DNA from: Clostridiales bacterium
GTDB taxonomy: Bacteria; Bacillota; Clostridia; Lachnospirales; WRAX01
DNA length: 64,000 nt
Direction: 5' to 3'
NCBI GenBank assembly: GCA_031265685.1
Contig: JAISCI010000028.1
Location: 31-64,030 of the forward strand
Position numbers and translations under genes: made by a program. This document shows positions 29 through 61,780 of the stretch, piece after piece (position 1 is the stretch's first letter; the number at the start of each line of letters is the position of its first letter). The notes below the pieces were generated by a model. It saw only the letters and a program-made list of their open reading frames with translations. It did not search any database and was not told the origin of the DNA.

Positions 29-86
29 GTAGCGGCTGGCGGATCTTAATTATAATGGGTGGTGGAAATTTCAATTAGCAAATACA
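29..86. repeat. Copy 1 of a ~58-bp conserved sequence; copy 2 is at 30629-30686 in the same orientation
   Basis: The two copies share GTAGCGGyTGGCGGATCTTAATTATAATGGGyGGyGGA...TTTCArTTrrCAAATACA, roughly 85 percent identical by eye. Both lie at the 3' end of a minus-strand ORF. Confidence 0.6.
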
Positions 87-446: not shown

Positions 447-1166
447 CAGCCTGTTTTTGACAGATTGGTTGCCGGAATAGTCGAAATAGACTGTATAGTC
501 ATACGCCGCGTCGAACGGCGTTATTGTTCGGATGGAGATTGTTGCTATTGGGGAGCCTCCTTTCGGCGAGCTTGCTCTATGATTTGTTTAACAATTATTC
601 TATATAATTATTCAAGAAATATGTTCTTATTATCTTATTCGGAATAACCCCATTGCGCGGCGTGATTTGCCACGGAGCCTCATCACGCATCATTGCGCGC
701 AGTTTCCAACTACACTCAATGTTATAAAACTGACCTGATCACTCGTATGGCTTCTGCGCAAGAAAAACCATATCTTAAGAAAGACGTACCCAAGCACGAA
801 ATATTGCAAAATGCTCGGAATAGCCTGAATTATTTTATCAATTTCCACTAGTATTATCCCACATATTAGTGTTATCGTTGCCATTGAATGGCCTTGTTTC
901 TGATATGATACACCAAAATATTCCCAACGTCAACAAAAGTCACGCCTTCCCAACAACATACCGCCTGTTCCAATCATTTCCCGCAAACAGCACCAGCACG
1001 CTTTCATTGACGACAAACGTCTGCCCGGTGGCGCAAGAAACGGTGTAGATCGTCCCCTGCATATTGACGGAATATTTGCCCCGCCCAAAACCGCCGTCAC
1101 GCTTCCTTGCCGCGTCACATCGTACGGCAGCGACCGGAGGCGTTCGTTCTATCTTGATCCGCCAAG

Positions 1167-1252
1167 GAATTTTGCGTGAATCATGCAAAATTCATCCAAG
1201 CGAAAATGCTTCGATTCAAGCGAACTTCGCCCAAGTAAACTTCACTTGTTGG
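1167..1252. repeat. Hairpin-module repeat block (X/Y word family)
   Basis: GAATTTTGC-GTGAATCAT-GCAAAATTC is followed by the degenerate words CGAAAATGC, TTCGATTCAA and GCGAACTTC. Confidence 0.7.
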
Positions 1253-1336
1253 CGAGGAGAGCTTCTATAAGAAGCAGGGATACGCGTTCAATGAGGCGGA
1301 TCATCGGGAGTTAAACCGCTTGTTAACGACGGTTGC

Positions 1337-1459
1337 GGATTTTGCTTGGTTCGAAGCATTATCGCGTGACAGAATTTCGCATCGCATTATCGTTTGAACT
1401 ACACGATAATGCTTCGAATAACGCGAAATTCACCCAAGCGATAATGCGATGCAAAATCC
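1337..1459. repeat. Four-stem nested palindrome (X/Y word family)
   Basis: Left arm: GGATTTTGC-10-GCATTATCG-7-GAATTTCGC-3-GCATTATCG. Loop: 11 nt. Right arm: CGATAATGC-10-GCGAAATTC-7-CGATAATGC-3-GCAAAATCC. All four stem pairs are perfectly complementary. Confidence 0.85.
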
Positions 1460-1824
1460 ATAGGCCGGTTCATACTGTCTTATAATGACTGTGAGTTTGT
1501 TCGGGAATTGTACGATGGGTTTAATATGGAGCCTGTCTCGCGGTAAAATAATCTGACAAGCCGGTATGAAAATCGAGAAAATTATAAGGAGTTGATCGTT
1601 TGGAATTACTAATAGTCGATTATTTATAGTAATTATTAGCGTTATTTCGATTCTGTTTGTTGTGTAAAATTGTAACAAATTATATATAAAAACGTTCTAT
1701 GTGTGCAGTGATTTAACGTGCATGTAGAATGTTTTTTCGTTTGTCGGAGAACAAAAAAGTTGGTGTTTTAAGTGGAGATGTTTGAACGTCTTGTTGAACG
1801 CTTACACTGAACGTCAGCCACTTT

Positions 1825-1978
1825 GACCGACGTTTGATGTTGTCGAAGACAACATCTGAATTTTGCTTGAATGAATTTTGCATCGCATTATCGTTTGAAC
1901 GAATTTTGCCTAAAGCCGCAAAATTCTGTCACACGATAATGCTTCGATTCACACAAAATTCATCAAGCCATCTTCTTA
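1825..1978 (+). repeat. G-type palindromic element, copy G1 (end1 to end2)
   Basis: End1 is GACGTTTGATGTTGTCGAAGACAACATC, itself a 9-bp hairpin. The core is made of X/Y words. End2 is CATCAAGCCATCTTCTT. Copies with the same ends occur at 3166-3243 and 5318-5460 in the opposite orientation. Confidence 0.8.
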
Positions 1979-2485
1979 CTCCAAGCCGGGAAATCTCCGA
2001 TCGCCGTCAGAGCGTTCCAAGGTACAGACAGCCTGAGCGGCTATGCCCTCGGACCGTCCCGTGAAGCCCATGCCTTCCTCGGTGGACGCCTTTACGTTTA
2101 CGCGGCGCGTCATCGGGTCGATCCCGAGCGCCGCCGCCACGTTACGCTCCATTTGCGGTATAAACGGCGCAAGCCGGGGCTTCTCGGCGACTATGACCGC
2201 GTCGATGTTGCCGACGAAGTATCCCCGCGCGAAAATCATGCCCCACGCCCGGCGCAGAAGTTCCAGACTGTCTATACCGTCATACGCCGGGTCGTCGTCC
2301 GGGAAAAACCTGCCGATGTCCCCCAAACCCGCCGCGCCGAGAAGCGCGTCGATAACGGCGTGAACCAAAACGTCCGCGTCCGAATGTCCCAGAAGGCCCC
2401 TTTCAAACTCAATCTCAACCCCGCCGAGCACAAGACGGCGCCCTTCCGCCAATCTGTGCGCGTCATAGCCTATGCCTGTACTCAT
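1976..2485 (-). CDS. ispF: 2-C-methyl-D-erythritol 2,4-cyclodiphosphate synthase
   Basis: Translation from the internal ATG at 2485 gives MSTGIGYDAHRL...GHSDADVLVHAVIDALLGA, the typical IspF sequence. The upstream 30 codons of the tracked ORF look non-coding. The stop codon lies at the edge of element G1. Confidence 0.9.
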   Translation of the reverse strand: MSTGIGYDAHRLAEGRRLVLGGVEIEFERGLLGHSDADVLVHAVIDALLGAAGLGDIGRFFPDDDPAYDGIDSLELLRRAWGMIFARGYFVGNIDAVIVAEKPRLAPFIPQMERNVAAALGIDPMTRRVNVKASTEEGMGFTGRSEGIAAQAVCTLERSDGDRRFPGLE

Positions 2486-3165
2486 GTTGATTCCCCTCTC
2501 CAGACTGTCCCCGCTAAGGTGATTCCGCGTCGCATTACCGAGAAATTCTTCAGCCGAGTTTGAGTTTGAACACAACCGGCTTATTAACCGCGGCCGCCTT
2601 CTTGAGCGAAAGGCTCGCTGTTTGGGGACCCCGGGTTGGATGTCGGCGGAGTCGTCGCCGCGGTGATTTCATCTAAACGCGCCCGCCGGAAGAAACCGCT
2701 CTTCCGCTGAAACAACCGACGCGCTTTCGGACGTATCTCGTCGATTCTATCGGCGACCTCAAACGCAAAACCATCCGTGTGCTCGACCAAGTTTTCCTTG
2801 AATATCAGCGTGTTTTCGGTAAAACGCCGAAAGAGTTACCGCTGCAACTCGGCGGACCCGCCGAGTTCGAGGGCGTTTCCGTCGATGTCTGACGTAATTT
2901 CCGACCAAGCTGAGCCGCCAAAAACTCGATCAAGATGAAGCCCGCGCACTCTACCGCGCCGCTGAATCCTCTTCCAGCTCGTCCCTCTTCTTCTCAAAAT
3001 GTATCTCACACGCCCGCCCGCATTGTTATTATAACATATTTATCCGATTATTTCAAGCTTCGCCTGGCCTAAAGACAATCTTCGCACCCCTCCGGGCTGC
3101 CCCGCCAATCCCGGAGCAGTCCGGCAATCACCGTTTCAATCCGCTTCGGCGAGTAATCGGGCGTC

Positions 3166-3243
3166 AAGAAGATGGTTTGATGAATTTTGCGTGAATCGAA
3201 GCAAAATTCAGATGTTGTCTTCGACAACATCAAACGTCGGTCA
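3166..3243 (-). repeat. G-type palindromic element, short copy G2 (end2 to end1)
   Basis: AAGAAGATGGTTTGATGAATTTTGC-GTGAATCGAA-GCAAAATTCAGATGTTGTCTTCGACAACATCAAACGTCGGTC. This is the reverse complement of the G1 termini with a single X hairpin as core. Confidence 0.8.
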
Positions 3244-3523
3244 AAGGCGTCGCCGTAAAACGTCCTTATGAACAATAACCGACAGCAACCGCAGATTTTA
3301 GCAATACAGACATTCTACAACTTCCGCGGAATCGGATTTTCAGCGGCACGCGTACTTCTTACTCGAATAATCGGCAGCAAAGTTAGCTTAAACCCGCGCT
3401 TTGTTATTCGGGCGGGTGATTTTGGGGTTGACATTTACAAAATTACCTCATTCCGCCGATATTATGACGCTTAGCGGCTATAATTACCGGGGTTTTTGGA
3501 GCGGTTACGGGATAGACATAAAC

Positions 3524-4103: not shown

Positions 4104-5087
4104 TCAATATACGTATTTATTGACGTCGTCGACCGTCACGCCGGGATGCAGCGCGATATTAAGCGCGTTGGCGATAATATTCGACAGCCGCTCGACGACC
4201 GCGTCCGCATCCTTCGGAGCGACGAACATGCTTCCGAGGTACGGTTCAAGCAGACGACTGATTATCGCGCTCTTCTCGCGGCGCTCCAGGTTCTCGAGCG
4301 TCTCAAAGAAATCCGCGCCCTCCGGCATCTCCGCCCGCATACTGGAAACGGTGAGATCCAGGGAGTCTGACACGAGCGTCGCGGCGTCGATAACCGTCGG
4401 CACTCCGACCGCCAGAACCTTCCGTCCGAGCGACTTCTCGGTCAGTTCGGCGCGGTAATTACCCATGCCGGAGCCGGGGGCCAGTCCCGTGTCGCTGATC
4501 TGGATTGTGGAATTGAGCCGCGAGGTATTCCTCGCCGCCAGCGCGTCCACGCAAATCACAACCGCCGGGTCGATCGCGTCAGCCACCCCCTTGATTGTGT
4601 CGGCCGTCTCGATGCCGGTGATTCCCATCACGCCCGGCGTTATAGCGGCCACCGGGCGCACTCTCCCGGCAAGTTCCTCCGGGACGGTATCCATGATGTG
4701 CCGGGTCACGAGCGCCTTTTTTATCACTTTGGGCCCGAGCGCGTCCGGGGTTACGCTCCAGTTGCCCAAACCGACGATCAGAACGGTATCGCCGCCGGAG
4801 AGCTTCGCGATCTTGGCGATCTGCCGCGCGAGAATCGCGGCGATTTCCTCGTGCTTATCGCGGTTGTTATCTTTAAGGGCGTCGGATTCGATAGTGACGT
4901 AACTACCTATCGGCTTGCCCATTTTAGCTGAGCCGACGTCGTTTTCGATCTCAATCCATGTAATCTTGATTCCGTCGTTTTCGCGGACATCGACGCCGAC
5001 GCCCGTTTCGCCCGACTCCGCCTTTCGTTCAGCGTTTTCGTTCAATATCTCGGCCGCTTCGACGGCCAGGTCGGTAATCGGTTTCAT
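4104..5087 (-). CDS. gpr: Germination protease (spore endopeptidase GPR)
   Basis: Translation from ATG 5087 (GGGAGGG RBS) gives MKPITDLAVEA...LIVGLGNWSVTPDALGP...VICVDALAARNTSRLNSTIQISDTGLAPGSG, the GPR family pattern. The upstream 109 codons of the tracked ORF translate repeat DNA. Confidence 0.9.
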   Translation of the reverse strand: MKPITDLAVEAAEILNENAERKAESGETGVGVDVRENDGIKITWIEIENDVGSAKMGKPIGSYVTIESDALKDNNRDKHEEIAAILARQIAKIAKLSGGDTVLIVGLGNWSVTPDALGPKVIKKALVTRHIMDTVPEELAGRVRPVAAITPGVMGITGIETADTIKGVADAIDPAVVICVDALAARNTSRLNSTIQISDTGLAPGSGMGNYRAELTEKSLGRKVLAVGVPTVIDAATLVSDSLDLTVSSMRAEMPEGADFFETLENLERREKSAIISRLLEPYLGSMFVAPKDADAVVERLSNIIANALNIALHPGVTVDDVNKYVY

Positions 5088-5269
5088 AGCGCCCTCCCGA
5101 AGGTATTTGTCATTAAAGTAGCTTTTCCCGCGGGAAGGGATTGTATGTGAAATATGTATACGCTGACCTGGGCGTGTTTGAAAACTAGCCCTGACTCCCG
5201 GCCAAGCGGCGACCGCCGCGACTGAAAACGCTTCCCCGCTGTAATTTGTTAACCGACAAATCTGTCGAT

Positions 5270-5514
5270 TAAACAAAAACGCCGTGTACTCCGAGAGTAC
5301 GCAAGTTTTTGGCTGACGATGAAGAAGATGGCTTGATGAATTTTGCGTGACAGAATTTTGCGTGAATCGAAGCATTATCGTGTGGTTCAAACGATAATGC
5401 GATGCAAAATTCATTCAAGCAAAATTCAGATGTTGTATTCCACAACATCAAACGTCGATCAACGACGGGAAATCAGCCGAAAAGACGCCGATTCCATCTA
5501 TGAATACAGGTTCT
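5270..5514. repeat. F-type element, copy F', carrying a nested G-type insertion
   Basis: It shares AACGCCGyGTACTCmGAGAGTACGCAAGTTTTTGGCTGACG and TCAACGACGGGAAATCAGCCGAAAAGACGyCGATTCCATCTATGAATACAGGTTCT with 61680-61780. Those two halves are separated here by about 143 bp. Confidence 0.8.
5318..5460 (-). repeat. G-type palindromic element, copy G3, inserted inside F'
   Basis: GATGAAGAAGATGGCTTGAT...X-6-X-10-Y loop Y-3-X-6-X...CAGATGTTGTATTCCACAACATCAAACGTCG. It is near-identical to the reverse complement of G1. Confidence 0.8.
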
Positions 5515-5786: not shown

Positions 5787-5812
5787 AAGCTGGAGAATGT
5801 CGGAAGGGGGTG

Positions 5813-7132
5813 ATGTTATTGGCTAAAGTTTACACTGATCAAAATGTGTTCAACGCCTTCATGGACAGAATGGAGTATATATTTTCCAAGTTTGATCACG
5901 TCGTGGTCGCTTTTTCCGGAGGCAAGGATTCCGGCCTGATGCTGGAACTGGTTAACTTATATTACGCGAGGCGCCGCCCCGACGCCAAAGTCTCCGTATA
6001 CCACATCGACTATGAGGGCAATTATCAGTATACCATCGACTACGTATCGCGCTGCATGGGTAAATATCCTTATTTTGACTACTATCACCTTTGTATGCCG
6101 GTTTCGGCTTCATGCGGCGTATCCATGTATCAATCCACATGGATGCCCTGGAATCCGGACGAAAAGGACATCTGGCTCAAGGAACGCCCGCCGGGCGCGA
6201 TAACGCTGGAAAACCACGGCTTCGACTTCTTCAAGGTCGGTATGTCGGACTATGTTTTTCAGACAAAATTCGGCAAGTGGCTTCACAAACGCCGCGGTGC
6301 TAAAAGAACAGCCGTCCTTGTCGGCATACGCGCGCAGGAAAGCCTCAACCGCTATCACGCAGTGACCCGCGACAGCGCCTACCGGATGTTCGGCAAGATC
6401 GCCTACAGCACGCGCGTTTACACGGGTATCTACAATTTTTATCCGCTGTACGACTGGCTGGTCGAGGACATATGGACGGCCAACGCTAAGTTCGGGTTCG
6501 ATTACAATAAACTATACGACCTGTATTATTTGGCGGGCATACCGGTCGTGGAGATGCGCGTAGCCAACCCCTTCCATGAATGCGGAGTGGAAGCGCTCAA
6601 GCTGTTCCGCGCGATCGAGCCGAATACATGGAGCCGGCTGGTCGGACGCGTGAACGGCGCGAATTTCGGCGCGATTTACGGAGGCACGAAAGCGGTCGGC
6701 TACAAGGATATTTCCCTTCCGAAGGGCCACACGTGGAAAACCTACACGGAATTCCTCCTGAACACGCTGCCGTCGCGCACGCGGGAAATATATCGGCGCA
6801 AGTTTGAGACGTCTCTGCGTTACTGGCTTGATAAAGGCGGCGCTCTGCCCGTCAGGGTTGTGAACGAGCTTCGCAAGACGGATATTGTTTTCGAGCGGTT
6901 GGGCAAACCTACCGGAAAACGGAAATACAGGAGCGACCACGAGGTGGTCCGTTTCGCCGAATACCCCGACAGCGTCGATCTGCGGAACTTCCGGTCGCTG
7001 CCCAGTTATAAACGGATGTGCGTGACGATTATGAAGAACGACACGTCATGCCGTTATATGGGGTTCAGCCAGACCAAAGACGAACTGCAGAAAGGAAAGG
7101 AAGCGATGGCCGTATGGGAGAGCCTTATGTAA
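5813..7132 (+). CDS. PAPS-reductase-family ATP pyrophosphatase with a DUF3440-like C-terminal region (IbrA-like)
   Basis: The N-terminus carries the PP-loop VVVAFSGGKDSGLMLELV. The protein is about 440 aa, and its downstream ParB-like partner overlaps it by 19 nt. The exact start is uncertain (GTG 5810, ATG 5813 or TTG 5819). Confidence 0.75.
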   Translation: MLLAKVYTDQNVFNAFMDRMEYIFSKFDHVVVAFSGGKDSGLMLELVNLYYARRRPDAKVSVYHIDYEGNYQYTIDYVSRCMGKYPYFDYYHLCMPVSASCGVSMYQSTWMPWNPDEKDIWLKERPPGAITLENHGFDFFKVGMSDYVFQTKFGKWLHKRRGAKRTAVLVGIRAQESLNRYHAVTRDSAYRMFGKIAYSTRVYTGIYNFYPLYDWLVEDIWTANAKFGFDYNKLYDLYYLAGIPVVEMRVANPFHECGVEALKLFRAIEPNTWSRLVGRVNGANFGAIYGGTKAVGYKDISLPKGHTWKTYTEFLLNTLPSRTREIYRRKFETSLRYWLDKGGALPVRVVNELRKTDIVFERLGKPTGKRKYRSDHEVVRFAEYPDSVDLRNFRSLPSYKRMCVTIMKNDTSCRYMGFSQTKDELQKGKEAMAVWESLM

Positions 7133-7746: not shown

Positions 7747-8280
7747 ATGGAAATTAAACTGATTGAGCAAAAGCCGCTGACTACTTTAGCTGTGCGTGAA
7801 ACCGCCTCCGGCGCGGAATTGCCGCGGGTTATCAGCGCGGGCTTCGCGCGGGTGTACGATTATATCGTCAAAACCGGCGCTCAAATCATCGACGCGCCCT
7901 ACGCCGCCTATATAAACATGGCCGGCGACAGCTGGGATATTGAAATCGGATTCCCCGTCGCTCGGGAAACGCCGGAAAACGGTTCGGAAGTTTGCGTGAA
8001 CCAGGCAAACTCCCCAGACACGAACCATCCAGAACAAATGTCAACCTTGATTCCGAAACAGCATGAGATTTTCCCGAGCGTAATCCCGGCGGGACGAGCC
8101 GCCGCCGCGCTTCACAAGGGTTCATACGCCGGTCTGGAAGCGGTTTACGGCGAGCTGTTCAAATGGGTCGGGGATAACGGCCTTAAACAGTCCGGAGCGC
8201 CGTATGACCGCTATCTCAACGACCCGTCGGTTACGCCGGAGGACGAGCTGCTGACTAACGTCGTTATACCGGTAATCTAA
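7747..8280 (+). CDS. GyrI-like small-molecule-binding domain protein with an internal ~26-aa insertion
   Basis: MEIKLIEQKPLTTLAVRE...EIGFPV...IPAGRAAAALHKGSY...YDRYLNDP...VVIPV matches the GyrI-like / AraC effector-binding fold pattern. A GGAG RBS is present. Confidence 0.7.
   Translation: MEIKLIEQKPLTTLAVRETASGAELPRVISAGFARVYDYIVKTGAQIIDAPYAAYINMAGDSWDIEIGFPVARETPENGSEVCVNQANSPDTNHPEQMSTLIPKQHEIFPSVIPAGRAAAALHKGSYAGLEAVYGELFKWVGDNGLKQSGAPYDRYLNDPSVTPEDELLTNVVIPVI
7987..8073. repeat. Hairpin-module sequence embedded in-frame in the GyrI-like CDS
   Basis: 7987-8013 (GAAGTTTGCGTGAACCAGGCAAACTCC) matches 19451-19477 (GAATTTTGCGTGAACCAAGCAAAATTC) at 23 of 27 positions, and the G/C changes fall at paired positions. 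The rest of the insert is degenerate. Confidence 0.6.
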
Positions 8281-8468
8281 TTCCACTTAGAATTTGCGCC
8301 GGATATTTTTTCGAGCTTGCGTGTCCGAATTTTGCTTAGTTCACACAAAATTCTCATCGGAATTTTGCTTGGTTCGCACAAAATTCTCATCGGAATTTTG
8401 CTTGGTTCACGCAAAATTCTTAGGGGCGGCCGAAAATATTCGGCGTCCTTTAGAGTGGAATTAGTATA
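8278..8468 (+). mobile_element. TIR-bounded non-coding element, copy A (MITE-like, no ORF)
   Basis: Left end: (ATC)TAATTCCACTTAGAATTTGCGCCGGATATTTTTT. Right end: CCGAAAATATTCGGCGTCCTTTAGAGTGGAATTAGTAT. Homologous ends occur at 59764-59931 and, inverted, at 18181-18415. It lies between two convergent genes. Confidence 0.75.
8327..8420 (+). repeat. Tandem array of a 33-bp hairpin unit, about 2.9 copies, inside element A
   Basis: The unit GAATTTTGCTTrGTTCrCrCAAAATTCTCATCG starts at 8327, 8360 and 8393. Confidence 0.9.
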
Positions 8469-11044: not shown

Positions 11045-11157
11045 CATACTAATCCCATTTAGATTTATGGATAAAAATTTTTCAAGCGTCAGCGCGTTCG
11101 CGCGGCTTTAAGCGCGAACTGAAAAATTTTTATCCGTCTTTTGAAATGGGATTAGTA
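11045..11157 (+). mobile_element. TIR-bounded element, sister subfamily, copy D
   Basis: ATACTAATCCCATTTAGATTTATGGATAAAAATTTTT ... AAAAATTTTTATCCGTCTTTTGAAATGGGATTAGTAT. The 15-bp termini are perfect inverted repeats. The right arm supplies the last codons of the EamA ORF. Confidence 0.75.
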
Positions 11158-12089
11158 TTAAGGCAATGGCCGCCCCAGAATACGCCCGCCGTCACCAGCA
11201 GCGAGCCGGCGACCACGGGAAGCGTGATCTTGGCGCCCAGGATAAGCGCCGACGCCAGCACGGAGATTATGGGCAGCATATTCGCGATCGCGACGACAAG
11301 GACGACGTTTCCCCTTCTCATCGACATATTCCAGAAGATCGTCGCGCACAGCGACGATAACAGGATCTGGAACGCCAGCTCTGCGCCGGATTCGATCGGG
11401 TTCAGGATCGAATTGCCTAAGGATTCGCGGCTGAACCCGCGCGAATACAGCTCGCTGCCTGTTTCCGGGCTGAACGTCAGGGCAAGCGCCATAAGCGCCC
11501 CCGCCGCCAGCATAAAATAGCCTACGCCGTCGAAATCCGAGCGGACATGTTCCATATATTTACGCGTCAGTATCGAGAACAGCGCCCACGCCGCGGCGGA
11601 AGCCAGAGCGATCAGCGCGGACGGCAGTATGAAGCCGTCGGAGAGGATGTACGCGGCGTCCTGCCCGTAGCCCCCGCCCCACACGGTTATCGCGGCAGCG
11701 CCCGACGCGCTCAGGGCGAAACTGCCCCAAATCCAGCGGGACGCCTTCTTCTTCAGGACAAGCGGAGTCAGCAGCATCGCGAAGACCGGCCACATGAACT
11801 TTATTACTCCGACGGCCAGAGCTTGCTGGCGCGTCTGCGCGACGGCGGTGGACACGTATGACGAGAGCACGTAAAAGACGTACAGCGCGCCGCAGACAAA
11901 GACGTACCGCCTGGGAAGGGCGCGCATATCCCCCCAGCTCCCGTGACGCAAGCGGGACGCCGCGCAGATCAGCGCGCCGGACAGCAGGTTGACCAGCGCG
12001 CCGGAGGTAAACAGTCCAAGACGTTCCGCCAGCGTGCGGGTAAACGCCCCGCTGACACCCCAAATCACGACGGCCGCCGCGCCCAGCAA
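11130..12089 (-). CDS. EamA/DMT-superfamily transporter
   Basis: 319 aa with about 10 hydrophobic segments and a two-fold EamA-like organisation. The start is TTG. The C-terminal NTNPISKDG is encoded by element D. Confidence 0.7.
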   Translation of the reverse strand: MLGAAAVVIWGVSGAFTRTLAERLGLFTSGALVNLLSGALICAASRLRHGSWGDMRALPRRYVFVCGALYVFYVLSSYVSTAVAQTRQQALAVGVIKFMWPVFAMLLTPLVLKKKASRWIWGSFALSASGAAAITVWGGGYGQDAAYILSDGFILPSALIALASAAAWALFSILTRKYMEHVRSDFDGVGYFMLAAGALMALALTFSPETGSELYSRGFSRESLGNSILNPIESGAELAFQILLSSLCATIFWNMSMRRGNVVLVVAIANMLPIISVLASALILGAKITLPVVAGSLLVTAGVFWGGHCLNTNPISKDG

Positions 12090-12124
12090 TGTATAATTGG
12101 TTTTTATATTTACGCGCCCCCCTT

Positions 12125-12174
12125 AGACCAATCCCATTTTCAAGGACGGATAAAAATCTAAATGGGATTAGTAT
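12125..12174 (-). mobile_element. Minimal copy E of the D-type element, termini only, inverted relative to D
   Basis: AGACCAATCCCATTTTCAAGGACGGATAAAAATCTAAATGGGATTAGTAT equals the reverse complements of the D right arm and D left arm joined at GGATAAAAAT. Confidence 0.7.
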
Positions 12175-13154
12175 CACGGGCAATCGCGCAGGGTCTGGAT
12201 CAGCAGATCCATAAATCCCGGGAAGTCCAGCCGCAGCGCGGCTTCGGCGTTGGGGCGCTCCCCGCGGAAGCCCATGGTCGGGCTTTCGGTTACGTCCGTG
12301 CCCGGCGTTTCGCAGCGCAGATGACGGTAGTCGCAGACGGTCATGCCGCGCGTGAACTCGCCTTTCAGCTCCACGGTTATGTGCATGGGAGCGGCGGTGA
12401 TAAGCTCGGGACGGATCAGCCACGCGACGGCGCAGGCGTCGTGCAGGTTGGCGGCCGGAAGCGAGGCCGCTTCTTTGGACGTACCCAAAAAGAAGTTCAG
12501 CAGATCGACGGCGAACTTGGCCGTTCGGGTCGGAATCTTCGCTATCTCATCGACGCGCTCCCGCGATACGGCGCACTGCCGCGTGAGGTTAACGCCCGAC
12601 ATTTTAATCGGCACGCCGGAGTTAAACACGCGGTACGCGGCCTCCGGATCGACGAAGATATTAAACTCCGCCGCCGGCGTCCAGTTGCCGAAAGTCACCG
12701 AGCCGCCCATGAGACAGATCTCACGTATCCTCCCCGCGATCTCGGGAGCGCGGTTAAGCGCCGCGGCTATATTCGTCAGCGGGCCGGTGGGCACAAGCGT
12801 AACGCCGTCGACGCTTTTCACGGTTTCAACTATAAAGTCCACGGCGTGTTCCTTTTGCGGCGCGGTAACGGGATCGGGCAGCACTGGGCCGTCCAGCCCG
12901 CTTTCCCCGTGGAACTGCGGCGCGGTCACAAGCTCGGCCACCATCGGGCGCGAATGCCCCGCGTACACGGGTATATCGGTCCGGTCTATAACCTCCAGCG
13001 TTTTGAGCGCGTTTTTCGTTACGTTCCCGAGACAGCAATTGCCGCCGATCGTCGTAACGCCCAGCACATCCAGATGGCTCGCGGCGAGTATAATGGCGAA
13101 AGCGTCGTCGTGCCCGGGGTCGCAATCCAGTATTATTTTACGTCTGGCCTCCAT
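12174..13154 (-). CDS. Inosine/uridine-preferring nucleoside hydrolase family protein
   Basis: Translation from ATG 13154 (AGGAG RBS) gives MEARRKIILDCDPGHDDAFAIILA, the N-terminal DxDxxxDD aspartate cluster. Length is about 326 aa. Confidence 0.85.
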   Translation of the reverse strand: MEARRKIILDCDPGHDDAFAIILAASHLDVLGVTTIGGNCCLGNVTKNALKTLEVIDRTDIPVYAGHSRPMVAELVTAPQFHGESGLDGPVLPDPVTAPQKEHAVDFIVETVKSVDGVTLVPTGPLTNIAAALNRAPEIAGRIREICLMGGSVTFGNWTPAAEFNIFVDPEAAYRVFNSGVPIKMSGVNLTRQCAVSRERVDEIAKIPTRTAKFAVDLLNFFLGTSKEAASLPAANLHDACAVAWLIRPELITAAPMHITVELKGEFTRGMTVCDYRHLRCETPGTDVTESPTMGFRGERPNAEAALRLDFPGFMDLLIQTLRDCP

Positions 13155-18180: not shown

Positions 18181-18415
18181 ATACTAATTCCATTCTATAA
18201 GGACGCCAAATATTTTTTCGGTCCGCTCCTGGAATTGTGCATCGCATTATCGAGTGACAGAAGTTTGCGCGAATCGAAGCATTATCGTGTGGTTCAAACG
18301 ATAATGCGATGCAAACTTCGTCCAAGCGATAACGCTTCGAACCAAGCAAAATTCAGAGCCGCGCGGACGCACGCGCTTAAAGAATATCCGGCACAAATCT
18401 GAATGGAATTAGTAT
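18181..18415 (-). mobile_element. TIR-bounded non-coding element, copy C (inverted relative to A and B) with a four-stem X/Y core
   Basis: ATACTAATTCCATTCTATAAGGACGCCAAATATTTTTTCGG ... AAGAATATCCGGCACAAATCTGAATGGAATTAGTAT. The core at 18232-18354 is a nested palindrome. Confidence 0.8.
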
Positions 18416-18421
18416 CAGCGA

Positions 18422-19422: not shown

Positions 19423-19512
19423 GAATTTTGCATCGCATTATCGCTTGATGGAATTTTGCGTGAACCAAGCAAAATTCGTCCACGCGATAATGCTTCGAAC
19501 CGCGCAAAATTC
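19423..19512. repeat. Three-stem nested palindrome (X/Y word family)
   Basis: GAATTTTGC-ATC-GCATTATCG-7-GAATTTTGC-GTGAACCAA-GCAAAATTC-7-CGATAATGC-TTCGAACCGC-GCAAAATTC. Confidence 0.85.
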
Positions 19513-30515: not shown

Positions 30516-30628
30516 TCGCGGCTGCCCACGCGCCTGAATGGTGCCTGAGCTTAGTAAATACCGCATAAGCGCAAATAGTATATGTCAAGCAAAAAATCGG
30601 CCACGACCATAACAAAGCGCAAGTTACT

Positions 30629-30686
30629 GTAGCGGTTGGCGGATCTTAATTATAATGGGCGGCGGATTTTTCAGTTGACAAATACA
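30629..30686. repeat. Copy 2 of the ~58-bp conserved sequence (see 29-86)
   Basis: GTAGCGGTTGGCGGATCTTAATTATAATGGGCGGCGGATTTTTCAGTTGACAAATACA, located 22 nt beyond the stop codon of the FrhB-like gene. Confidence 0.6.
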
Positions 30687-31897: not shown

Positions 31898-33143
31898 CAG
31901 CCAACGCCCTTTCGAGATAATCGGCGGAGAACCGGCGCAACTCGCCCAGCGCGGCGTTGGACGCCGAGAAATCCACTTCCGCGGCGCCCGGCGTCAGCCA
32001 CTTAGACCAATCCCCGGACAGATCCGCCATGCGGTCCATCAGCCCGGTCTGCGACAGCAGCGAGGACGCCCGCTCGTTACGGTAACACGCGACCGCATAG
32101 AACGGGATATTGAAGTTGACGGCGAAAGCCGTGCCATGGAACGAATTGGTCACGACGAACCGCGCGCGGGCCAACAGCTCCACGAACCGCCTGGGATCGG
32201 CCGTGGATTCGTAGCGCGTGGATGGTGAAAGATCCGCCAGAAACCGCTGGTCGATGATAACGGGTGTAAGGCCCAGTATCTTCGCCAGCTTTTTGGCGAA
32301 GCCGTATACGCGCACACGGTTCGACAGCGCGTACACGACAAGCGTATCATCTCGGGATTTCGCCTGATTCACGCAAAATTCCCTTTCGTCCTCAATACCG
32401 AGCGAGGAGAGCCATTCCCCTCGCGTGAGCATCAGCGTCGGGTCAAGCGCGCAGACTGCCTCAATCCCCAGCGCCTCGCGGACTTTCCCGACATGCTGCG
32501 CTTCCCGCACGGAAACGGCGGAGTACGCCCGCAAATAACCCGCGATCCTCTCATTGACGGCTCGGTCGGCGAATTTATAGTTACCGAACGAAGCGGAATA
32601 CGCGACGCGCCTGACACCCTCGGGTAGGAATCCAAGGAAATAAACCGGCGTCACGCCGAAATACATCGGATTCCATATTTGGTCGCTGCCGCTTACCGCC
32701 GCGTCATAACCTGAAAATCCCTCGGCGACGCTTTCCTCCGCATACTCCTGTGTATAGGCTATGTACGTATCCCAAAACCTACGGTAATTCGCGATAAGGC
32801 GACGGCGCTTTCCGTAGTTGACAATATCGGAAACCATCCCGTAGACGCGGTTCATCAGTTCCGGCAACAGCTCGGACTTCTCGAGCTTAGCCGCTCCCCC
32901 GCCGATCTTTTTGCGCGAAAATACGGATCTCACTGTAGAAAAAGCTATCACTATGAATCCGACCCGCACCGGCCTAACGGTAGCGGCGACCATGCCGTGC
33001 CGGTAATCCAAGCACTTTACGTCAAAGCGGCGGCTCAGGCACGCGAACAGCGCGAACTCCTGCAGACTGCCGCCGTAGTTGACGTTACGGCTGAACGTTA
33101 CTAACAGTATCTTCCTCGCGCCCGGCTTCGGATTGTCTGACAA
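31890..33143 (-). CDS. Polysaccharide pyruvyl transferase family protein (CsaB/WcaK-like)
   Basis: ILLVTFSRNVNYGGSLQEFAL...GSDQIWNP...VVTNSFHGTAFAVNFNIPF matches the PS_pyruv_trans pattern. The start is TTG and overlaps the upstream gene. Confidence 0.8.
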   Translation of the reverse strand: MSDNPKPGARKILLVTFSRNVNYGGSLQEFALFACLSRRFDVKCLDYRHGMVAATVRPVRVGFIVIAFSTVRSVFSRKKIGGGAAKLEKSELLPELMNRVYGMVSDIVNYGKRRRLIANYRRFWDTYIAYTQEYAEESVAEGFSGYDAAVSGSDQIWNPMYFGVTPVYFLGFLPEGVRRVAYSASFGNYKFADRAVNERIAGYLRAYSAVSVREAQHVGKVREALGIEAVCALDPTLMLTRGEWLSSLGIEDEREFCVNQAKSRDDTLVVYALSNRVRVYGFAKKLAKILGLTPVIIDQRFLADLSPSTRYESTADPRRFVELLARARFVVTNSFHGTAFAVNFNIPFYAVACYRNERASSLLSQTGLMDRMADLSGDWSKWLTPGAAEVDFSASNAALGELRRFSADYLERALADD

Positions 33144-43584: not shown

Positions 43585-44267
43585 ATCCTGGCCTTCCTCT
43601 CCGATAGTTGGTAAGATCGTATCCTGTTTTTATCTATGGCCTTAGTATACCTCCCGATTTTTACGAATATTAGCGGATTTTGTGTCTAAATTGTAAACAT
43701 TGGGCTCGGATGATTTCTTAATTACAGCGGCGGTGTGGGGAGTGTCAAAATTCAAGCTGCGGTCGTTTGAAAGAAATTGATGAGAGTAAGGGGAAGCCCG
43801 GAGTATTTGCGCAGGCGGGTTTGGCTTGCCGGCTTGCGGTCGGATAGCTTTTGGCTTGGACTTGTACGCGCCTGTGTATTACAATCGAAAAATCGGCCAG
43901 TCAAGTTGTGCGCCAACACAAATGACAGCAAAATAATTATCTATCCTACAAAAACTAATCGTTACAACCCGTTATCCGCCGTTGTTCAGTGTTTAATTAT
44001 GCATTATCAGCGTTTCCCGCCGTTACCGGACCGCTCGTAAAACACGTATTGTCGGCACGTTTTTTATCGCTACAAACGACATTAACCATTCAAAAAGTGT
44101 CTACAAAAACTCGTAGACACTTTCAACCTCATACATTTACCGCCCTCTCAGCCTAGCTCAATTTCCTGTCCGCGATACGGATTACGGCGTCGGAAATCCG
44201 CGGCTGTTCTCACGGTCACTTAAAAGACGCTTCTTTCAATTCTCTTATGGAAATTTCAAACACGCTT

Positions 44268-44373
44268 GAATTTTGCGTGAATTGAAGCATTATCGTGTGG
44301 TTTGAACACGTGAAGCGCCTCAACCCGAGGGCTTACGAACATGACAGAATTTTGCTTGATTCACGCAAAATTC
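44268..44373. repeat. X/Y-word repeat block (partly degenerate)
   Basis: GAATTTTGC-GTGAATTGAA-GCATTATCG-TGTGGTTTGAAC ... GAATTTTGC-TTGATTCAC-GCAAAATTC. Confidence 0.75.
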
Positions 44374-44383
44374 GCTCACCATT

Positions 44384-44653
44384 GTGGCGCACAGGCTGGC
44401 CGCTATCGCCGTGAGTGAGGCCAGGGCGGCGCTGGACGGAGCCGGCGCGCTGAATGCGCCAATTCTACCCGGCGTCTATTCGCTGTCGCCGGTTGCGTCT
44501 GCCCGGCGTGTTCATCCGACGGAAAAGCCGCTGATGAATTTTGCGGGTTCAGGCAAAATTCAGGCGCTTATGCGCGAACTGGTAAAGATTGCTGGCAACC
44601 GCTTTGTACGCGTACGAGGTTTTGACGATTCAAACGCGCCAGAGCGTTGTTGA
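44384..44653 (+). pseudogene. Fragment of an N4/N6 DNA methyltransferase (HPTxKP motif) carrying a hairpin-module insertion
   Basis: ...ARRVHPTEKPL[MNFAGSGKIQ]ALMRELVKIAGN.... The bracketed residues are encoded by GAATTTTGC-GGGTTCAG-GCAAAATTC (44536-44561). The flanking catalytic regions are absent or degenerate. Confidence 0.5.
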
Positions 44654-44692
44654 AGGGGTTCGCAAAATAAGTTGAGGGGGTTCGCAAAATAA
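44649..44692 (+). repeat. Tandem 22-bp direct repeat, two copies
   Basis: GTTGAAGGGGTTCGCAAAATAA followed by GTTGAGGGGGTTCGCAAAATAA. Confidence 0.9.
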
Positions 44693-44862
44693 AAGGGAAG
44701 AAATACCCGGTAGGCAAGATCGAATCGGCGCTTGATGAGTTTGGTTATTTTGGCAAAGTATTTTCTGGGGCATAAAATGCGACTTTATTTATTTTGCGGG
44801 AGGCAACGAAATGGCGACTAAGAGCGTTATGAAAATCGTTACAGTGCGGAGTGAACGCGCCA

Positions 44863-44952
44863 TGAATTTTCGCGGGTTCGAAGCATTATCGCTTGGACGA
44901 ATTTTGCTTGGATCCGCAAAATTCCATCACGCGATAATGCGATGCGAAAATT
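44863..44952. repeat. Three-stem nested palindrome (X/Y word family)
   Basis: GAATTTTCGC-GGGTTCGAA-GCATTATCG-7-GAATTTTGC-TTGGATCC-GCAAAATTC-7-CGATAATGC-GAT-GCGAAAATTG. Confidence 0.85.
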
Positions 44953-45113
44953 GCCTTACCAGACGCTTGCTGGGCGCGTTTGAGAACGGCGAGAAGAGGG
45001 CGGTTAGGCGGACTGAGTTAAGAGGTCCGGTTGTGGACGCAGGGCGCGAGGAGATAGGGCGGCTGTTGGGCGGGGCATGAGATTTGGACAACGATAAGAC
45101 AGCCACTCGATGA

Positions 45114-45284
45114 TTAATGAGTGGCTGTCGGCAGATCGTCGGTTAGCTTTCTGATCCCGCGCCGGATCGCCTCCGCACGGGTCACGCCGGTAAGCTTAAT
45201 GTAACTGCTGAGAGTATTCGCGTCATCCGCGCCTAAGCGGACGAGTACCGGTTTGCTTTTGGGGTCGCTGGTAGGACATCCCAT
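45114..45284 (-). CDS. Ribbon-helix-helix (CopG/Arc-like) small DNA-binding protein; not in the ORF track (56 aa)
   Basis: MGCPTSDPKSKPVLVRLGADDANTLSSYIKLTGVTRAEAIRRGIRKLTDDLPTATH shows a beta-strand / helix / helix pattern. The stop codon overlaps a 10-bp hairpin (ACAGCCACTC...GAGTGGCTGT). The start and RBS are uncertain. Confidence 0.45.
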   Translation of the reverse strand: MGCPTSDPKSKPVLVRLGADDANTLSSYIKLTGVTRAEAIRRGIRKLTDDLPTATH

Positions 45285-45429
45285 TTTTTCATAATTTCCA
45301 ATATAATTTCTCCTTGCAAAGTCGCAATGACCGCGTTATAATGATCTTGGTCTGTGGGGCGATGGTAAGCCCGCCCTAAGTTGTGCTTTAACGGCTTGGC
45401 ACTGTCTGGGCCGTTATTTGTTGTTTGTC

Positions 45430-45576
45430 CTACGCTTTGTGCGTGAGCCAATCCTTTATCCTATCGAACAGTTCCTCGAGATTTTTCGCATCGTGGATGG
45501 CTAACAGTACATCTTTATAAGCACTTTCCCGCGCTTGTTGCACCAATGCTTCGGTTTGATTCATATCGTCTTCCAT
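45430..45576 (-). CDS. Small hypothetical helical protein; not in the ORF track (48 aa)
   Basis: A GAGAGGTGA RBS is followed by ATG. The sequence is MEDDMNQTEALVQQARESAYKDVLLAIHDAKNLEELFDRIKDWLTHKA. It lies upstream of the RHH gene on the same strand. Confidence 0.4.
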   Translation of the reverse strand: MEDDMNQTEALVQQARESAYKDVLLAIHDAKNLEELFDRIKDWLTHKA

Positions 45577-45976
45577 ATGTTCACCTCTCTCGCCGCTTAC
45601 CCAGCTGATAGCGGTTATTTCCGCCTCTTACTTTCTTAGTATATACTTTTGTATCTCAAAAATCAAGTTTTTTAATCTGAACAAAAATTCCATTGATTCA
45701 GTTTGCATTTAAGTATGGCTGACAATTTCAGGCAATCGCCCGAAGCCACAGGAAGTTACGGCGGACAGACTGACAGTGTGTAAACCGTGTCGTTAACGTG
45801 TTACTAACGCCCACCACCGCAAGCCGCTTAACTTTGGCGGGGTTGGCGGGGGTGAAAATTAAGTGAATTGTGTTGTGTGATTTTTCGGGTAAGAAATACG
45901 ATTGGGGAAAATATTATAAAGGTGCTGAGGATCTATCGAAAATCTTTCACTCAATAAAATGATAAAAAACTAAATC

Positions 45977-61614: not shown

Positions 61615-61780
61615 AGAACCTGTATTCATTAGTGGAATCGGCGGATTTTCGCGATGATTTCCTGCCGGGCGAGGAAGCGGAAAACGCCGCGTACTCAGAG
61701 AGTACGCAAGTTTTTGGCTGACGGTCAACGACGGGAAATCAGCCGAAAAGACGTCGATTCCATCTATGAATACAGGTTCT
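61615..61780. mobile_element. F-type inverted-repeat element, the uninterrupted copy
   Basis: Left arm AGAACCTGTATTCATTAGTGGAATCGGCGGATTTTCG and right arm CGAAAAGACGTCGATTCCATCTATGAATACAGGTTCT are ~37-nt imperfect inverted repeats. There is an internal 8-bp hairpin, GCGTACTC-AGA-GAGTACGC. The right arm encodes the last 6 codons of the DUF4330 gene. Confidence 0.75.

What the first reader, a model, noticed from the sequence alone, without database searches (positions are those of the whole stretch)
5270..5514. Filled versus empty site: a G-type element is nested inside one copy of the F-type element
61680-61780 and 5270-5514 share two conserved blocks: AACGCCGyGTACTCmGAGAGTACGCAAGTTTTTGGCTGACG and TCAACGACGGGAAATCAGCCGAAAAGACGyCGATTCCATCTATGAATACAGGTTCT.

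In the 61.7-kb copy the blocks are contiguous (GGCTGACG-GTCAACGACGGG). In the 5.3-kb copy they are separated by a complete G-type element of about 143 bp (5318-5460), with both of its characteristic ends.

This is the signature of an insertion event. It gives direct evidence that the G element has been mobile as a discrete unit with defined termini: end1 GACGTTTGATGTTGTsGAAkACAACATC and end2 CATCAAGCCATCTTCTTC. The junctions (GACG | ... GTCG |) show no clear target duplication.

The 5.3-kb copy also lacks the left arm of the F element.
Basis: seen in the sequence. Interest (0 to 1): 0.58.

Follow-up and report, generated by a model that had tools for sequence, protein, structure and literature searches.

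The report
Small hairpin repeat inserted into another
A 139-bp gene-less hairpin repeat ("G") sits precisely inside one copy of a second palindromic repeat ("F") in an uncultured Clostridiales genome, which shows that G moved as a discrete unit; this is real, but it is an ordinary kind of event for bacterial miniature mobile elements.

Summary
Two F copies share two blocks that are 96/100 identical. The blocks are contiguous at 61723|61724 and separated at 5.3 kb by a 139-bp insert (5319-5457, minus strand). The insert has the same two ends as G1 (1828-1979) and G2 (3163-3239).

F is a 166-bp imperfect palindrome. Its two halves align colinearly across the junction, so the empty state is ancestral and G is the insertion.

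- All three G copies, and the empty site, have TTGAY immediately 5' of the G left end (about 0.2% per position by chance).
- G ends in a similar pentamer (TTGAC, TT-AC, TTCAT).
- The G interior is a variable stack of two hairpin modules (GAATTTTGC/GCAAAATTC and GCATTATCG/CGATAATGC). These also occur in at least 10 other intergenic clusters and at the centre of a third repeat family (E).

G has no terminal inverted repeats, a conserved 5' adjacent pentamer and a hairpin near its left end. This best fits a protein-less derivative of an IS200/IS605-type element, or a REP-like element, moved as single-stranded DNA by a Y1 HUH transposase acting in trans.

No transposase lies in the 64 kb, and no relatives were found in any searched collection, so the mechanism is inferred. 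It is a new family of a known kind, of modest interest.

The parts
5276..5318 (+). F element, 5.3-kb copy, left block. It holds the apex hairpin GTGTACTC-CGA-GAGTACGC plus AAGTTTTTGGCTGACG. The F left arm is absent upstream.
   Evidence: 41/43 identical to 61681-61723. BLAST E=1e-11. Terminator-like hairpin at 5284-5302.
5319..5457 (-). G3, the inserted G element (139 bp). Read on the minus strand it is CGACGTTT, then hairpin 1, then the nested a/b hairpin, then the tail TCAAGCCATCTTCTTCAT.
   Evidence: Junctions come from comparison with the empty site. Termini are shared with G1 and G2. DNA fold -37.8 kcal/mol, z=-7.2.
5429..5449 (-). G3 hairpin 1 near the left end (GATGTTGT-GGAAT-ACAACATC), 8 nt from the left end of the element.
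   Evidence: The stem is invariant in all three copies. The loop differs (CGAAG in G1 and G2).
5337..5428 (-). G3 variable core: a nested hairpin of a-modules (GAATTTTGC/GCAAAATTC) and a b-module (GCATTATCG/CGATAATGC).
   Evidence: Positions 5347-5420 are 93% identical to 18254-18327 (D15).
5458..5514 (+). F element, 5.3-kb copy, right block including the right terminal arm. Its first 5 nt (ATCAA, which is TTGAT on the G strand) are the target-adjacent motif.
   Evidence: 55/57 identical to 61724-61780. E=4e-18.
61615..61780 (+). F element, full-length empty copy. It is a 166-bp imperfect palindrome with terminal inverted arms of about 29 nt and a terminator-like apex (61689-61707). The empty insertion point is 61723|61724 (minus strand TTGAC|CGTCAGCC).
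   Evidence: (DNA fold -52 kcal/mol, z=-10).
1828..1979 (+). G1 (152 bp), preceded by TTGAC (1823-1827) and ending in CTTCTTAC. The stop codon of the ispF-like gene (1976-1978) lies in its last bases.
3163..3239 (-). G2 (77 bp), a short form with a single a-hairpin. On its own strand it is preceded by TTGAC (3240-3244) and ends in TTGAC (3163-3167).

Best explanation
G is a protein-less, non-autonomous mobile element of 77-152 bp. One copy, G3, inserted into a pre-existing copy of a second palindromic miniature element, F. That F copy lies upstream of the spore-protease gene gpr, in the chromosome of an uncultured spore-forming Clostridiales bacterium.

Shown directly:
- The insert has defined termini shared with two other copies.
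- Removing it restores F.
- The point of insertion is immediately 3' of TTGAC/T.
- There are no terminal inverted repeats and no duplication of variable flanking sequence.

Inferred mechanism:
- G moves like a minimal IS200/IS605-type element (a palindrome-associated transposable element, PATE) or a REP-like unit.
- A Y1 HUH transposase encoded elsewhere in the genome recognises the DNA hairpins on one strand and cuts 3' of the flank pentamer TTGAY. It also cuts 3' of the similar pentamer at the element's own right end.
- The single-stranded circle is then pasted 3' of another TTGAY that is exposed as single-stranded DNA. Here that site lies in the weakly paired internal loop of the F palindrome.
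- The variable core of stacked a and b hairpins is reshuffled by further hairpin insertions, slippage or recombination among the many copies of these modules.

Confidence in the separate parts:
- Discrete insertion of G into F: about 0.9.
- Y1/HUH single-strand mechanism: about 0.45.
For: Insertion:
- Block identities and junctions.
- The same termini in G1, G2 and G3.
- The two F half-palindromes align colinearly (62/86) with no gap at the junction.
- An independent Logan assembly contig from run SRR14710922 (L056) starts TCAT|CGTCAGCC. This reproduces the G3-right-end/F junction, not the empty TTGAY|CGTCAGCC.

Mechanism:
- TTGAC, TTGAC and TTGAT lie 5' of G1, G2 and G3, and TTGAC lies at the empty site. 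TTGAY occurs at 0.19% of positions.
- The right termini TTGAC, TT-AC and TTCAT resemble the flank motif. This matches the similar transposon-adjacent and transposon-encoded end motifs described for IS200/IS605 elements (PMC10055086).
- ISDra2 inserts 3' of TTGAT, has hairpins near both ends, and excises without a scar (PMC2806898).
- A Firmicute PATE consists of 28 nt of left end with one hairpin plus a long multi-hairpin right end, and its left-end and right-end hairpins are unlike each other (PMC7290912).
- G has a perfect 8-bp hairpin 8 nt from its left end and strong folds with z of -4 to -7.
- The target lies in the least stably paired part of the F hairpin.
- Four a-stems carry compensatory double changes at three different stem positions, so pairing is maintained.
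- In a second filled/empty pair, the b-loop reads TTTGAAC|CACA in G3 and TTTGAAC[29-nt a-hairpin]CACA in G1, again 3' of a TTGA-type motif.
Against: - There are only three G copies and one filled/empty pair.
- No Y1 transposase, TnpB or any other transposase is present among about 50 genes of the window, and the rest of the genome could not be reached.
- I could not identify a guide sequence at the hairpin foot that matches TTGAY.
- The right-end pentamer varies between copies.
- The imperfect TTGAY...TTSAY repeat can equally be read as a decayed 5-bp target duplication.
- The core modules also occur without G ends, so part of the pattern could be due to recombination.
- Orientation relative to GC skew is 2 of 3, which is uninformative.
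Confidence: 0.5

Rival explanations
1. G is a conventional cut-and-paste miniature element moved by a DDE transposase. It prefers TTGAC as target and duplicates it as 5 bp. On this reading the element proper runs from CGACG to CATCTTC.
For: - G2 is flanked by perfect TTGAC...TTGAC.
- G3 is flanked by TTGAT...TTCAT (4/5).
- G1 is flanked by TTGAC...TT-AC.
- The empty site has a single TTGAC.
Against: - The termini are not inverted repeats. The only shared inverted motif, TTGATG/CATCAA, lies 6-9 nt inside the ends.
- All three supposed duplications are the same pentamer, so they cannot be told apart from an element-encoded end motif.
- Two of the three are imperfect, although the elements are 96% identical elsewhere.
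Confidence: 0.15
2. G is not a transposon in its own right. It is one arrangement within a REP/BIME-like system: the a and b hairpins are the units acted on by a RAYT-like enzyme, or are spread by recombination or gene conversion. The G ends are merely sequences that have been co-amplified with them.
For: - The a and b hairpins occur in at least 10 clusters, in both orientations, with recurring linkers.
- They form Russian-doll nests, a(b(a A)B)A, and a 3 x 33-nt tandem array at 8324-8422.
- They sit at the centre of E-type repeats.
- The G3 core is closer to the E2 core (93%) than the G1 core is to the G3 core overall (79% with gaps).
- TTGATG recurs at the foot of a-hairpins.
Against: - The filled/empty comparison shows that the whole unit, including both non-palindromic G ends, arrived in F in one piece.
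- There is no GTAG-type REP head.
- No RAYT gene is visible.
Confidence: 0.2
3. The arrangement is an assembly artefact of a metagenome-assembled genome, in which repeat-induced bubbles were resolved wrongly. Alternatively, the 61.7-kb copy is a deletion derivative of a once-filled F.
For: - The source is a single metagenome-assembled genome (MAG) contig.
- Independent Logan contigs break inside the F arms and the G ends. These are therefore graph repeats, and the interior of the 61.7-kb F copy is not independently covered.
Against: - The two F copies differ at positions next to the junction (A versus G at 5458/61724), so the filled and empty paths are distinct sequences.
- L056 confirms one filled junction.
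- Even if the paths were swapped, both states must exist in the sample.
- F's palindromic symmetry shows no G counterpart.
- An exact deletion of G would itself be an excision.
Confidence: 0.07
4. G (or F, or both) is primarily a functional structured RNA or regulatory DNA module, such as a terminator, a 3' stabiliser, or a guide RNA scaffold (omega-RNA) of a TnpB element. On this reading its spread is secondary.
For: - The F apex is a bidirectional terminator-like hairpin in both copies.
- G1 abuts the ispF stop codon, and F lies between a DUF4330 gene and hpf.
- PATEs often retain guide RNA (omega-RNA) scaffolds (PMC10055086).
- The stems show compensatory changes.
Against: - No Rfam family matches, even at E<=5.
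- The G core varies from 1 to 7 modules, unlike a conserved scaffold.
- G copies occur in both orientations relative to neighbouring genes.
- The empty F copy, which would be the predicted TnpB target, is intact.
Confidence: 0.08

Closest known systems
PATEs: protein-less derivatives of IS200/IS605 elements (for example those of ISDra2, the ISGst elements and the Halanaerobium IS605)
   Same: - No coding capacity, and a length of 77-152 bp.
- No terminal inverted repeats.
- Insertion 3' of a fixed pentamer (TTGAY here; ISDra2 uses TTGAT).
- A similar pentamer at the element's own 3' end.
- A hairpin within the first 29 nt of the left end, and a multi-hairpin right part.
- No duplication of variable flank.
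   Different: - No parent IS and no tnpA or tnpB is known.
- No recognisable guide sequence pairs with the pentamer.
- The right-end pentamer is variable.
- The interior is built from hairpin modules that also exist independently all over the intergenic space.
REP / BIME / REPIN sequences mobilised by RAYT (Y1 HUH) transposases
   Same: - Short conserved palindromic units (27-29 nt) in both orientations.
- Units are joined by recurring linkers into clusters of variable composition.
- Clusters lie in intergenic regions, often at the 3' ends of genes.
- The stems carry compensatory changes.
   Different: - There is no GTAG head.
- The units nest inside each other's loops rather than only lying side by side.
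- G carries unique non-palindromic ends.
- The host is a Clostridiales lineage.
- No RAYT gene was seen in the window.
Pneumococcal BOX elements (boxA-boxB(n)-boxC), and their nesting with RUP and SPRITE elements
   Same: - Conserved end modules with a variable number of internal modules.
- Strongly folded.
- Found in Firmicutes.
- Different small repeat families insert into one another (PMC3049150).
   Different: - BOX and RUP have terminal inverted repeats and target duplications.
- No sequence match to G was found in the collections searched; BOX itself was not compared.
- BOX modules are not self-nesting hairpins.
Classical MITEs with terminal inverted repeats (for example Correia, Nezha, ERIC). 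This comparison applies to F, the host element.
   Same: - F is 166 bp with terminal inverted arms of about 29 nt.
- The whole element is palindromic.
- It may be flanked by a TTA duplication (61613-61615 and 61780-61782).
- Its apex is terminator-like.
- It sits between genes of an operon.
   Different: - Only one full copy and one truncated copy are visible, so the duplication and the parent IS cannot be established.

Membership tests
IS200/IS605-derived PATE | No terminal inverted repeats | tested here: met
   The termini CGACGTTTGATG... and ...AAGCCATCTTCTT are not reverse complements. Only an internal TTGATG/CATCAA motif is shared.
IS200/IS605-derived PATE | Insertion 3' of a specific tetra- or pentanucleotide that stays outside the element (the transposon-adjacent motif, TAM) | tested here: met
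   TTGAC, TTGAC and TTGAT lie 5' of G1, G2 and G3. The empty F site reads TTGAC|CGTCAGCC. The background frequency is 0.19% per position. This rests on only 3 copies.
IS200/IS605-derived PATE | No target-site duplication | tested here: inconclusive
   No variable flank is duplicated. However, the 3' terminal pentamer (TTGAC, TT-AC, TTCAT) can be read either as the element-encoded end motif or as a decayed 5-bp duplication.
IS200/IS605-derived PATE | Hairpins near both ends on the same strand | tested here: met
   Left end: an 8-9-bp perfect stem, 8 nt from the end. Right end: the a/b hairpin ends 18-21 nt before the terminus. The two hairpins differ in sequence, which is documented for some family members (PMC7290912).
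IS200/IS605-derived PATE | Guide sequence at the 5' foot of the hairpin that pairs with the cleavage motif | tested here: inconclusive
   Inspection of CGACGTTT (between the motif and the hairpin) and of the hairpin feet gave no convincing complement of TTGAY. These interactions are partly non-canonical, so sequence alone cannot decide.
IS200/IS605-derived PATE | A cognate Y1 HUH transposase (tnpA), or a parent IS with the same ends, in the genome | not testable with these tools
   None was found among about 50 genes and the small ORFs of the window. The rest of the MAG could not be retrieved. Genome and metagenome scans found no other G copy.
REP/BIME-RAYT | Abundant short imperfect palindromes in intergenic regions, clustered in alternating orientation with linkers | tested here: met
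   There are 12 convincing simple a-hairpins (of 16 pattern matches), 3 simple b-hairpins and many nested ones, in 13 clusters within 64 kb.
REP/BIME-RAYT | Conserved 5' tetranucleotide (GTAG) at the foot of the palindrome, and a RAYT gene flanked by REPs | tested here: not met
   There is no GTAG; TTGAT(G) recurs instead. No RAYT lies in the window, and its absence from the whole genome is not testable.
MITE with terminal inverted repeats (DDE transposase) | Terminal inverted repeats plus a target-site duplication | tested here: not met
   Not met for G, which has no terminal inverted repeats. For F the inverted repeats are present (about 26/29 matches), and a TTA duplication is possible but rests on a single full copy.
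Known structured RNA families (Rfam 15, including the IS605-orfB and HEARO types) | A covariance-model match | tested here: not met
   No match at gathering threshold in the whole window, and only noise at E<=5 over G1-G3 and F.

The most novel reading that the evidence does not exclude
The G, E and 'naked' clusters may be facets of one undescribed, lineage-specific system of self-nesting DNA hairpins in an uncultured Clostridiales lineage. In this system, hairpin units of about 27-29 nt (a and b) repeatedly insert 3' of TTGA-type motifs exposed in the loops of other hairpins, building Russian-doll palindromes. Composite units such as G are then mobilised as single-stranded DNA by a Y1 HUH enzyme. 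It would be a Firmicute counterpart of REPIN/RAYT with a different cleavage motif and recursive loop targeting.
Probability: 0.2. Interest if true: 0.55.

Novelty: new member of a known kind. Interest (0 to 1): 0.33.

Why it matters
The finding gives a clean, base-resolved insertion event for a previously unseen family of miniature elements, in a deep-branching Clostridiales lineage known only from a metagenome. The nearest homologue of its spore protease is 58% identical.

It also predicts a target motif (TTGAY), which points to a single-strand HUH-type transposition system that can be looked for in the full genome.

Practically, these repeats occupy about 3% of the window, break short-read assemblies, supply stop codons to two genes, and carry terminator-like hairpins. 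They therefore matter for annotation and for understanding gene expression in this organism.

It does not challenge current understanding. Small bacterial repeats inserting into one another is documented, for example in pneumococci.

Tried and rejected
- **Large collection scans with the G left end.** I scanned 185,579 species genomes and the JGI metagenomes with TTTGATGTTGTNNNNNACAACATC. This gave 18 and 35 singleton hits in unrelated taxa. None had the adjoining TGAATTTTGC, so they are chance matches.
- **Other collections.** A viral-contig scan for the a-hairpin gave 3 chance hairpins. BLAST of the whole finding region (5270-5514) against plasmids and phages gave no match.
- **Strain comparison.** The exact-protein look-ups that succeeded returned only short Logan contigs from one run (SRR14710922), and these break at the repeats; three other look-ups returned nothing. 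The closest GPR homologues are 58% identical or less. Their loci (L060, 21 kb; L061, 3.5 kb) contain no clusters of these motifs.
- **Rfam.** Nothing was found at gathering or permissive thresholds.
- **Transposase search.** Pfam scans of about 50 genes and of small ORFs in the gene-poor stretches (1-1800 and 43.6-46.4 kb) gave only housekeeping genes and a weak ribbon-helix-helix hit.
- **Rejected: F inserted into G.** G is intact and F is split.
- **Rejected: G1 and G2 as the ends of a composite transposon around ispF.** The segment between them holds only ispF and an AraC-like remnant.
- **Not informative:** orientation relative to GC skew, with n=3.

Full report

The 5.3-kb region reads ...AAACGCCGTGTACTCCGAGAGTACGCAAGTTTTTGGCTGACG | ATGAAGAAGATGGCTTGATG...CACAACATCAAACGTCG | ATCAACGACGGGAAATCAGCCGAAAAGACGCCGATTCCATCTATGAATACAGGTTCT. 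The 61.7-kb region has the same two blocks abutting, GGCTGACG|GTCAACGACGGG.

The blocks are 41/43 and 55/57 identical, with within-window BLAST E-values of 1e-11 and 4e-18. The insert is 139 bp (5319-5457). A CG dinucleotide at both junctions leaves a 2-nt ambiguity.

The two G end motifs each occur three times in the window, against 0.00 and 0.05 expected from shuffles. A three-way alignment with flanks shows similarity starting and stopping at the same bases in all three copies:
- G1: 1828-1979, plus strand, 152 bp.
- G2: 3163-3239, minus strand, 77 bp.
- G3: 5319-5457, minus strand, 139 bp.

The 5.3-kb F copy lacks the left arm. Upstream of 5276 there is an unrelated, unique small hairpin.

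**Direction of the event.** F (61615-61780) is a 166-nt imperfect palindrome. Its DNA fold is -52 kcal/mol with z=-10, and it has terminal arms of about 29 nt. Aligning its left half with the reverse complement of its right half gives a colinear 62/86 match with only 1-nt gaps. The insertion point has an ordinary counterpart in the other half.

The empty state is therefore the native architecture of F, and G3 is an insertion. An exact loss of G from a filled F would itself be a precise excision, so G is a discrete mobile unit either way. F cannot have inserted into G, because G is intact and F is split.

One junction has independent support. A Logan contig from run SRR14710922 (L056) begins TCAT|CGTCAGCCAAAAACTT. 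That is the last four bases of G3 joined to F, not the TTGAY|CGTCAGCC of an empty site. Other Logan contigs end inside the F arms and inside the G2 left end, as expected for repeats in an assembly graph. The interior of the empty copy is covered only by the MAG assembly, which leaves a small residual risk.

On the G strand the three copies read:
- G1: cacTTTGAC|CGACGTTTGATG...CATCTTCTTAC|tcc
- G2: gccTTTGAC|CGACG...CATCTTCTTGAC|gcc
- G3: gtcGTTGAT|CGACG...CATCTTCTTCAT|cgtcagcc

The empty site reads gtcGTTGAC|cgtcagcc.

The pentamer TTGAY therefore precedes every copy, but it belongs to the target (to F), not to G. TTGAY occupies 0.19% of positions in this window. Finding it exactly at the empty junction, given the motif from G1 and G2, has a probability of about 0.002-0.006.

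The last five bases of G (TTGAC, TT-AC, TTCAT) resemble the same pentamer. No variable flanking sequence is duplicated, and the termini are not inverted repeats.

**Anatomy of G**. Reading along the G strand:
- An 8-nt leader, CGACGTTT.
- A perfect hairpin, GATGTTGT-N5-ACAACATC. The stem is invariant and the loop is CGAAG or GGAAT.
- A long nested hairpin of variable length, bounded by TGAATTTTGC...GCAAAATTCA.
- A single-stranded tail, TCAAGCCATCTTCTT, plus 2-3 nt.

Differences between the copies:
- G1 and G3 are 96% identical over the left 78 nt (I2).
- G1 has an extra 29-nt hairpin (GAATTTTGCCTAAAGCCGCAAAATTCTGT) inside the inner loop: TTTGAAC|CACA in G3 versus TTTGAAC[...]CACA in G1.
- G1 lacks a 15-nt module (TGTCACGCAAAATTC) that G3 has.
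- G2 retains only one small hairpin.

**The core belongs to a wider repeat system.** Two 9-nt stem types build hairpins: a (GAATTTTGC/GCAAAATTC) and b (GCATTATCG/CGATAATGC). They occur in 13 clusters in the window, three of them inside G1, G2 and G3:
- 1164-1460
- inside G1, G2 and G3
- 7984-8016
- 8324-8422, as three tandem 33-nt units
- 18232-18361
- 19423-19512
- 32352-32384
- 44267-44376
- 44536-44561
- 44862-44950
- 59822-59881

They occur in both orientations, with recurring linkers (ATC, GTGAATCGAA, GTGACA, TTGAAT), and nested as a(b(a A)B)A.

A third family, E, has arms ATACTAATTCCACTCTAAAGGACGCCGAATATTTTTTCGG.... Its copies are at 8277-8467, 18181-18418 and 59764-59932, with diverged relatives at 11046-11158 and 12120-12177. 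The three main copies (8277-8467, 18181-18418, 59764-59932) carry an a...A hairpin of different content at the centre; the diverged relative at 11046-11158 has no a/b core.

Positions 5347-5420 of G3 are 93% identical to the E2 core at 18254-18327 (D15). Four a-stems carry double changes that preserve Watson-Crick pairing at three different stem positions: 1337/1451, 1372/1421, 7987/8005 and 18260/18310. Hairpin formation is therefore maintained, either by selection or by arm-to-arm templating. Nested a-hairpins lie 3' of TTGAAC, TTGATG or TTGGAC in b-loops.

G is thus discrete at its ends but mosaic inside.

**Context.** The window is ordinary chromosome of a spore-forming Clostridiales organism. 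Genes found include ispF, cotF-like genes, gpr, hpf, groEL, plsX, rnc, ftsH-like, htrA-like, an rpoD-type sigma factor, ispH-rpsA, cmk, iPGM, and cell-envelope polysaccharide genes.

The GPR protein is 100% identical to one MAG protein on a 73,765-bp contig, and the next homologue is 58% identical. No close relative is available.

Positions of the repeats relative to genes:
- G3 and F lie between the divergent genes gpr (4107-5090, minus) and a DUF3440/PAPS-reductase gene (5810-7132, plus).
- The full F copy lies between a DUF4330 gene, whose last 5 codons and stop codon are inside the F right arm, and the hpf ribosome-binding site.
- G1 supplies the ispF stop codon.
- The F apex (GCGTACTC-AGA-GAGTACGC, flanked by GAAAAC and GTTTTT) looks like a bidirectional intrinsic terminator in both copies.

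No transposase or recombinase is encoded in the window, including the gene-poor stretches. Rfam gives nothing.

**Mechanism.** G combines the following features:
- no terminal inverted repeats;
- no duplication of variable flank;
- a fixed pentamer 5' of the left end that stays with the target;
- a similar pentamer at the element's own 3' end;
- hairpins on one strand;
- no coding capacity.

This is the signature of IS200/IS605-type 'peel and paste' elements and their protein-less PATE derivatives. Three published comparisons support it:
- ISDra2 inserts 3' of TTGAT, depends on hairpins near its ends, and excises without a scar (PMC2806898).
- The flank motif and the terminal motif of such elements are similar pentamers (PMC10055086).
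- In a Firmicute example, the left and right hairpins are unlike each other, and a PATE consists of a 28-nt left end plus a long multi-hairpin right end that can carry small inserts (PMC7290912).

In addition, the target pentamer in F lies in the least stably paired stretch of the F hairpin. That would suit a single-strand target.

Against membership: no tnpA is known, I could not find a guide sequence, the 3' pentamer varies, and there are only three copies. The same data allow other readings. I put the alternatives at:
- Y1/HUH mechanism: about 0.45.
- REP/RAYT-like system in which the a/b hairpins are the true substrates: 0.2.
- DDE element with a 5-bp TTGAC duplication: 0.15.
- Artefact or RNA-function readings: below 0.1 each.

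**Comparison and novelty.** Nesting of small interspersed repeats within one another is documented. [quoted passage not shown]

No sequence relative of G's left-end motif, the a-hairpin or the finding region (part of F plus G3) was found in the collections each was searched against: genomes and metagenomes for the G left end, viral contigs for the a-hairpin, plasmids and phages for 5270-5514. E and the b module were not searched outside the window. Nothing was seen in 24 kb around the closest GPR homologues either.

These are new, lineage-specific families of a known kind. The self-nesting modular hairpins are the most unusual aspect and deserve a genome-wide census. The specific finding is a well-supported but unsurprising nested insertion.

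**Verdict.** The mechanism is inferred, not shown. Interest is modest (0.33).

Noticed in passing
window 1164-1460, 7984-8016, 8324-8422, 18232-18361, 19423-19512, 32352-32384, 44267-44376, 44536-44561, 44862-44950, 59822-59881: A family of 27-29-nt hairpin modules is scattered through intergenic DNA in both orientations: a (GAATTTTGC-loop-GCAAAATTC) and b (GCATTATCG-loop-CGATAATGC). They nest inside each other's loops, a(b(a A)B)A. Four a-stems carry compensatory double substitutions. The G interiors are built from the same modules.
   Followed up: partly
window 8324-8422: Three head-to-tail 33-nt copies of TCGGAATTTTGCTTGGTTCACGCAAAATTCTCA, each a hairpin. They sit at the centre of an E-type repeat between a GyrI-like gene and an Fe-alcohol-dehydrogenase gene.
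   Followed up: no
window 8277-8467, 18181-18418, 59764-59932; diverged 11046-11158 and 12120-12177: A third repeat family ('E') has long inverted arms of about 45 nt (ATACTAATTCCACTCTAAAGGACGCCGAATATTTTTTCGGTCCGCG). The centre always holds an a...A hairpin, but with different contents in each copy. The diverged copy at 11046-11158 has no a/b core.
   Followed up: partly
window 61764-61780 and 1976-1979: Repeat ends supply gene ends. The last 5 codons and the stop codon of the DUF4330 gene (61764-62258, minus) lie inside the F right arm. The TAA stop codon of the ispF-like gene lies in the last bases of G1.
   Followed up: partly
window 5284-5302 and 61689-61707: The apex of F is an 8-bp GC-rich hairpin flanked by an A-run and a T-run, a shape typical of a bidirectional intrinsic terminator. 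In the full copy it lies between the DUF4330 gene and hpf.
   Followed up: partly
window 43600-46420: A 2.8-kb stretch at 47-50% GC has no convincing gene; the only candidate is a weak ribbon-helix-helix ORF at 45114-45284. It contains three a/b clusters. Its nature is unknown: a decayed island, or non-coding RNA.
   Followed up: partly
window 29-86 and 30629-30686 (also 3391-3438 versus 30578-30625): A 58-nt direct repeat, 86% identical (GTAGCGGYTGGCGGATCTTAATTATAATGGG...), contains a TATAAT-like box. A neighbouring 48-nt inverted match contains TTGACA. These may be a repeated promoter module or yet another repeat family.
   Followed up: no
window 2576-3160: The roughly 600 bp between ispF and G2 hold no intact gene. 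The plus-strand frame at 2777-2938 reads like the C-terminal helix-turn-helix of an AraC-family regulator (FLEYQRVFGKTPKELP), so it is probably a gene remnant.
   Followed up: no
window 7984-8016: A degenerate a-type hairpin (GAAGTTTGC-GTGAACCAG-GCAAACTCC) lies inside the coding region of the GyrI-like gene (7747-8280). It is either a chance resemblance or an in-frame repeat insertion.
   Followed up: no
L001 1-30, L055 end, L056 1-12 and 2060-2106 (Logan contigs of SRR14710922): Independent short-read contigs of the same organism stop inside the F arms and inside the G2 and G3 ends. These repeats therefore fragment assemblies of this genome. L056 starts four bases inside G3, which hints at a branch in the assembly graph at that junction.
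   Followed up: partly
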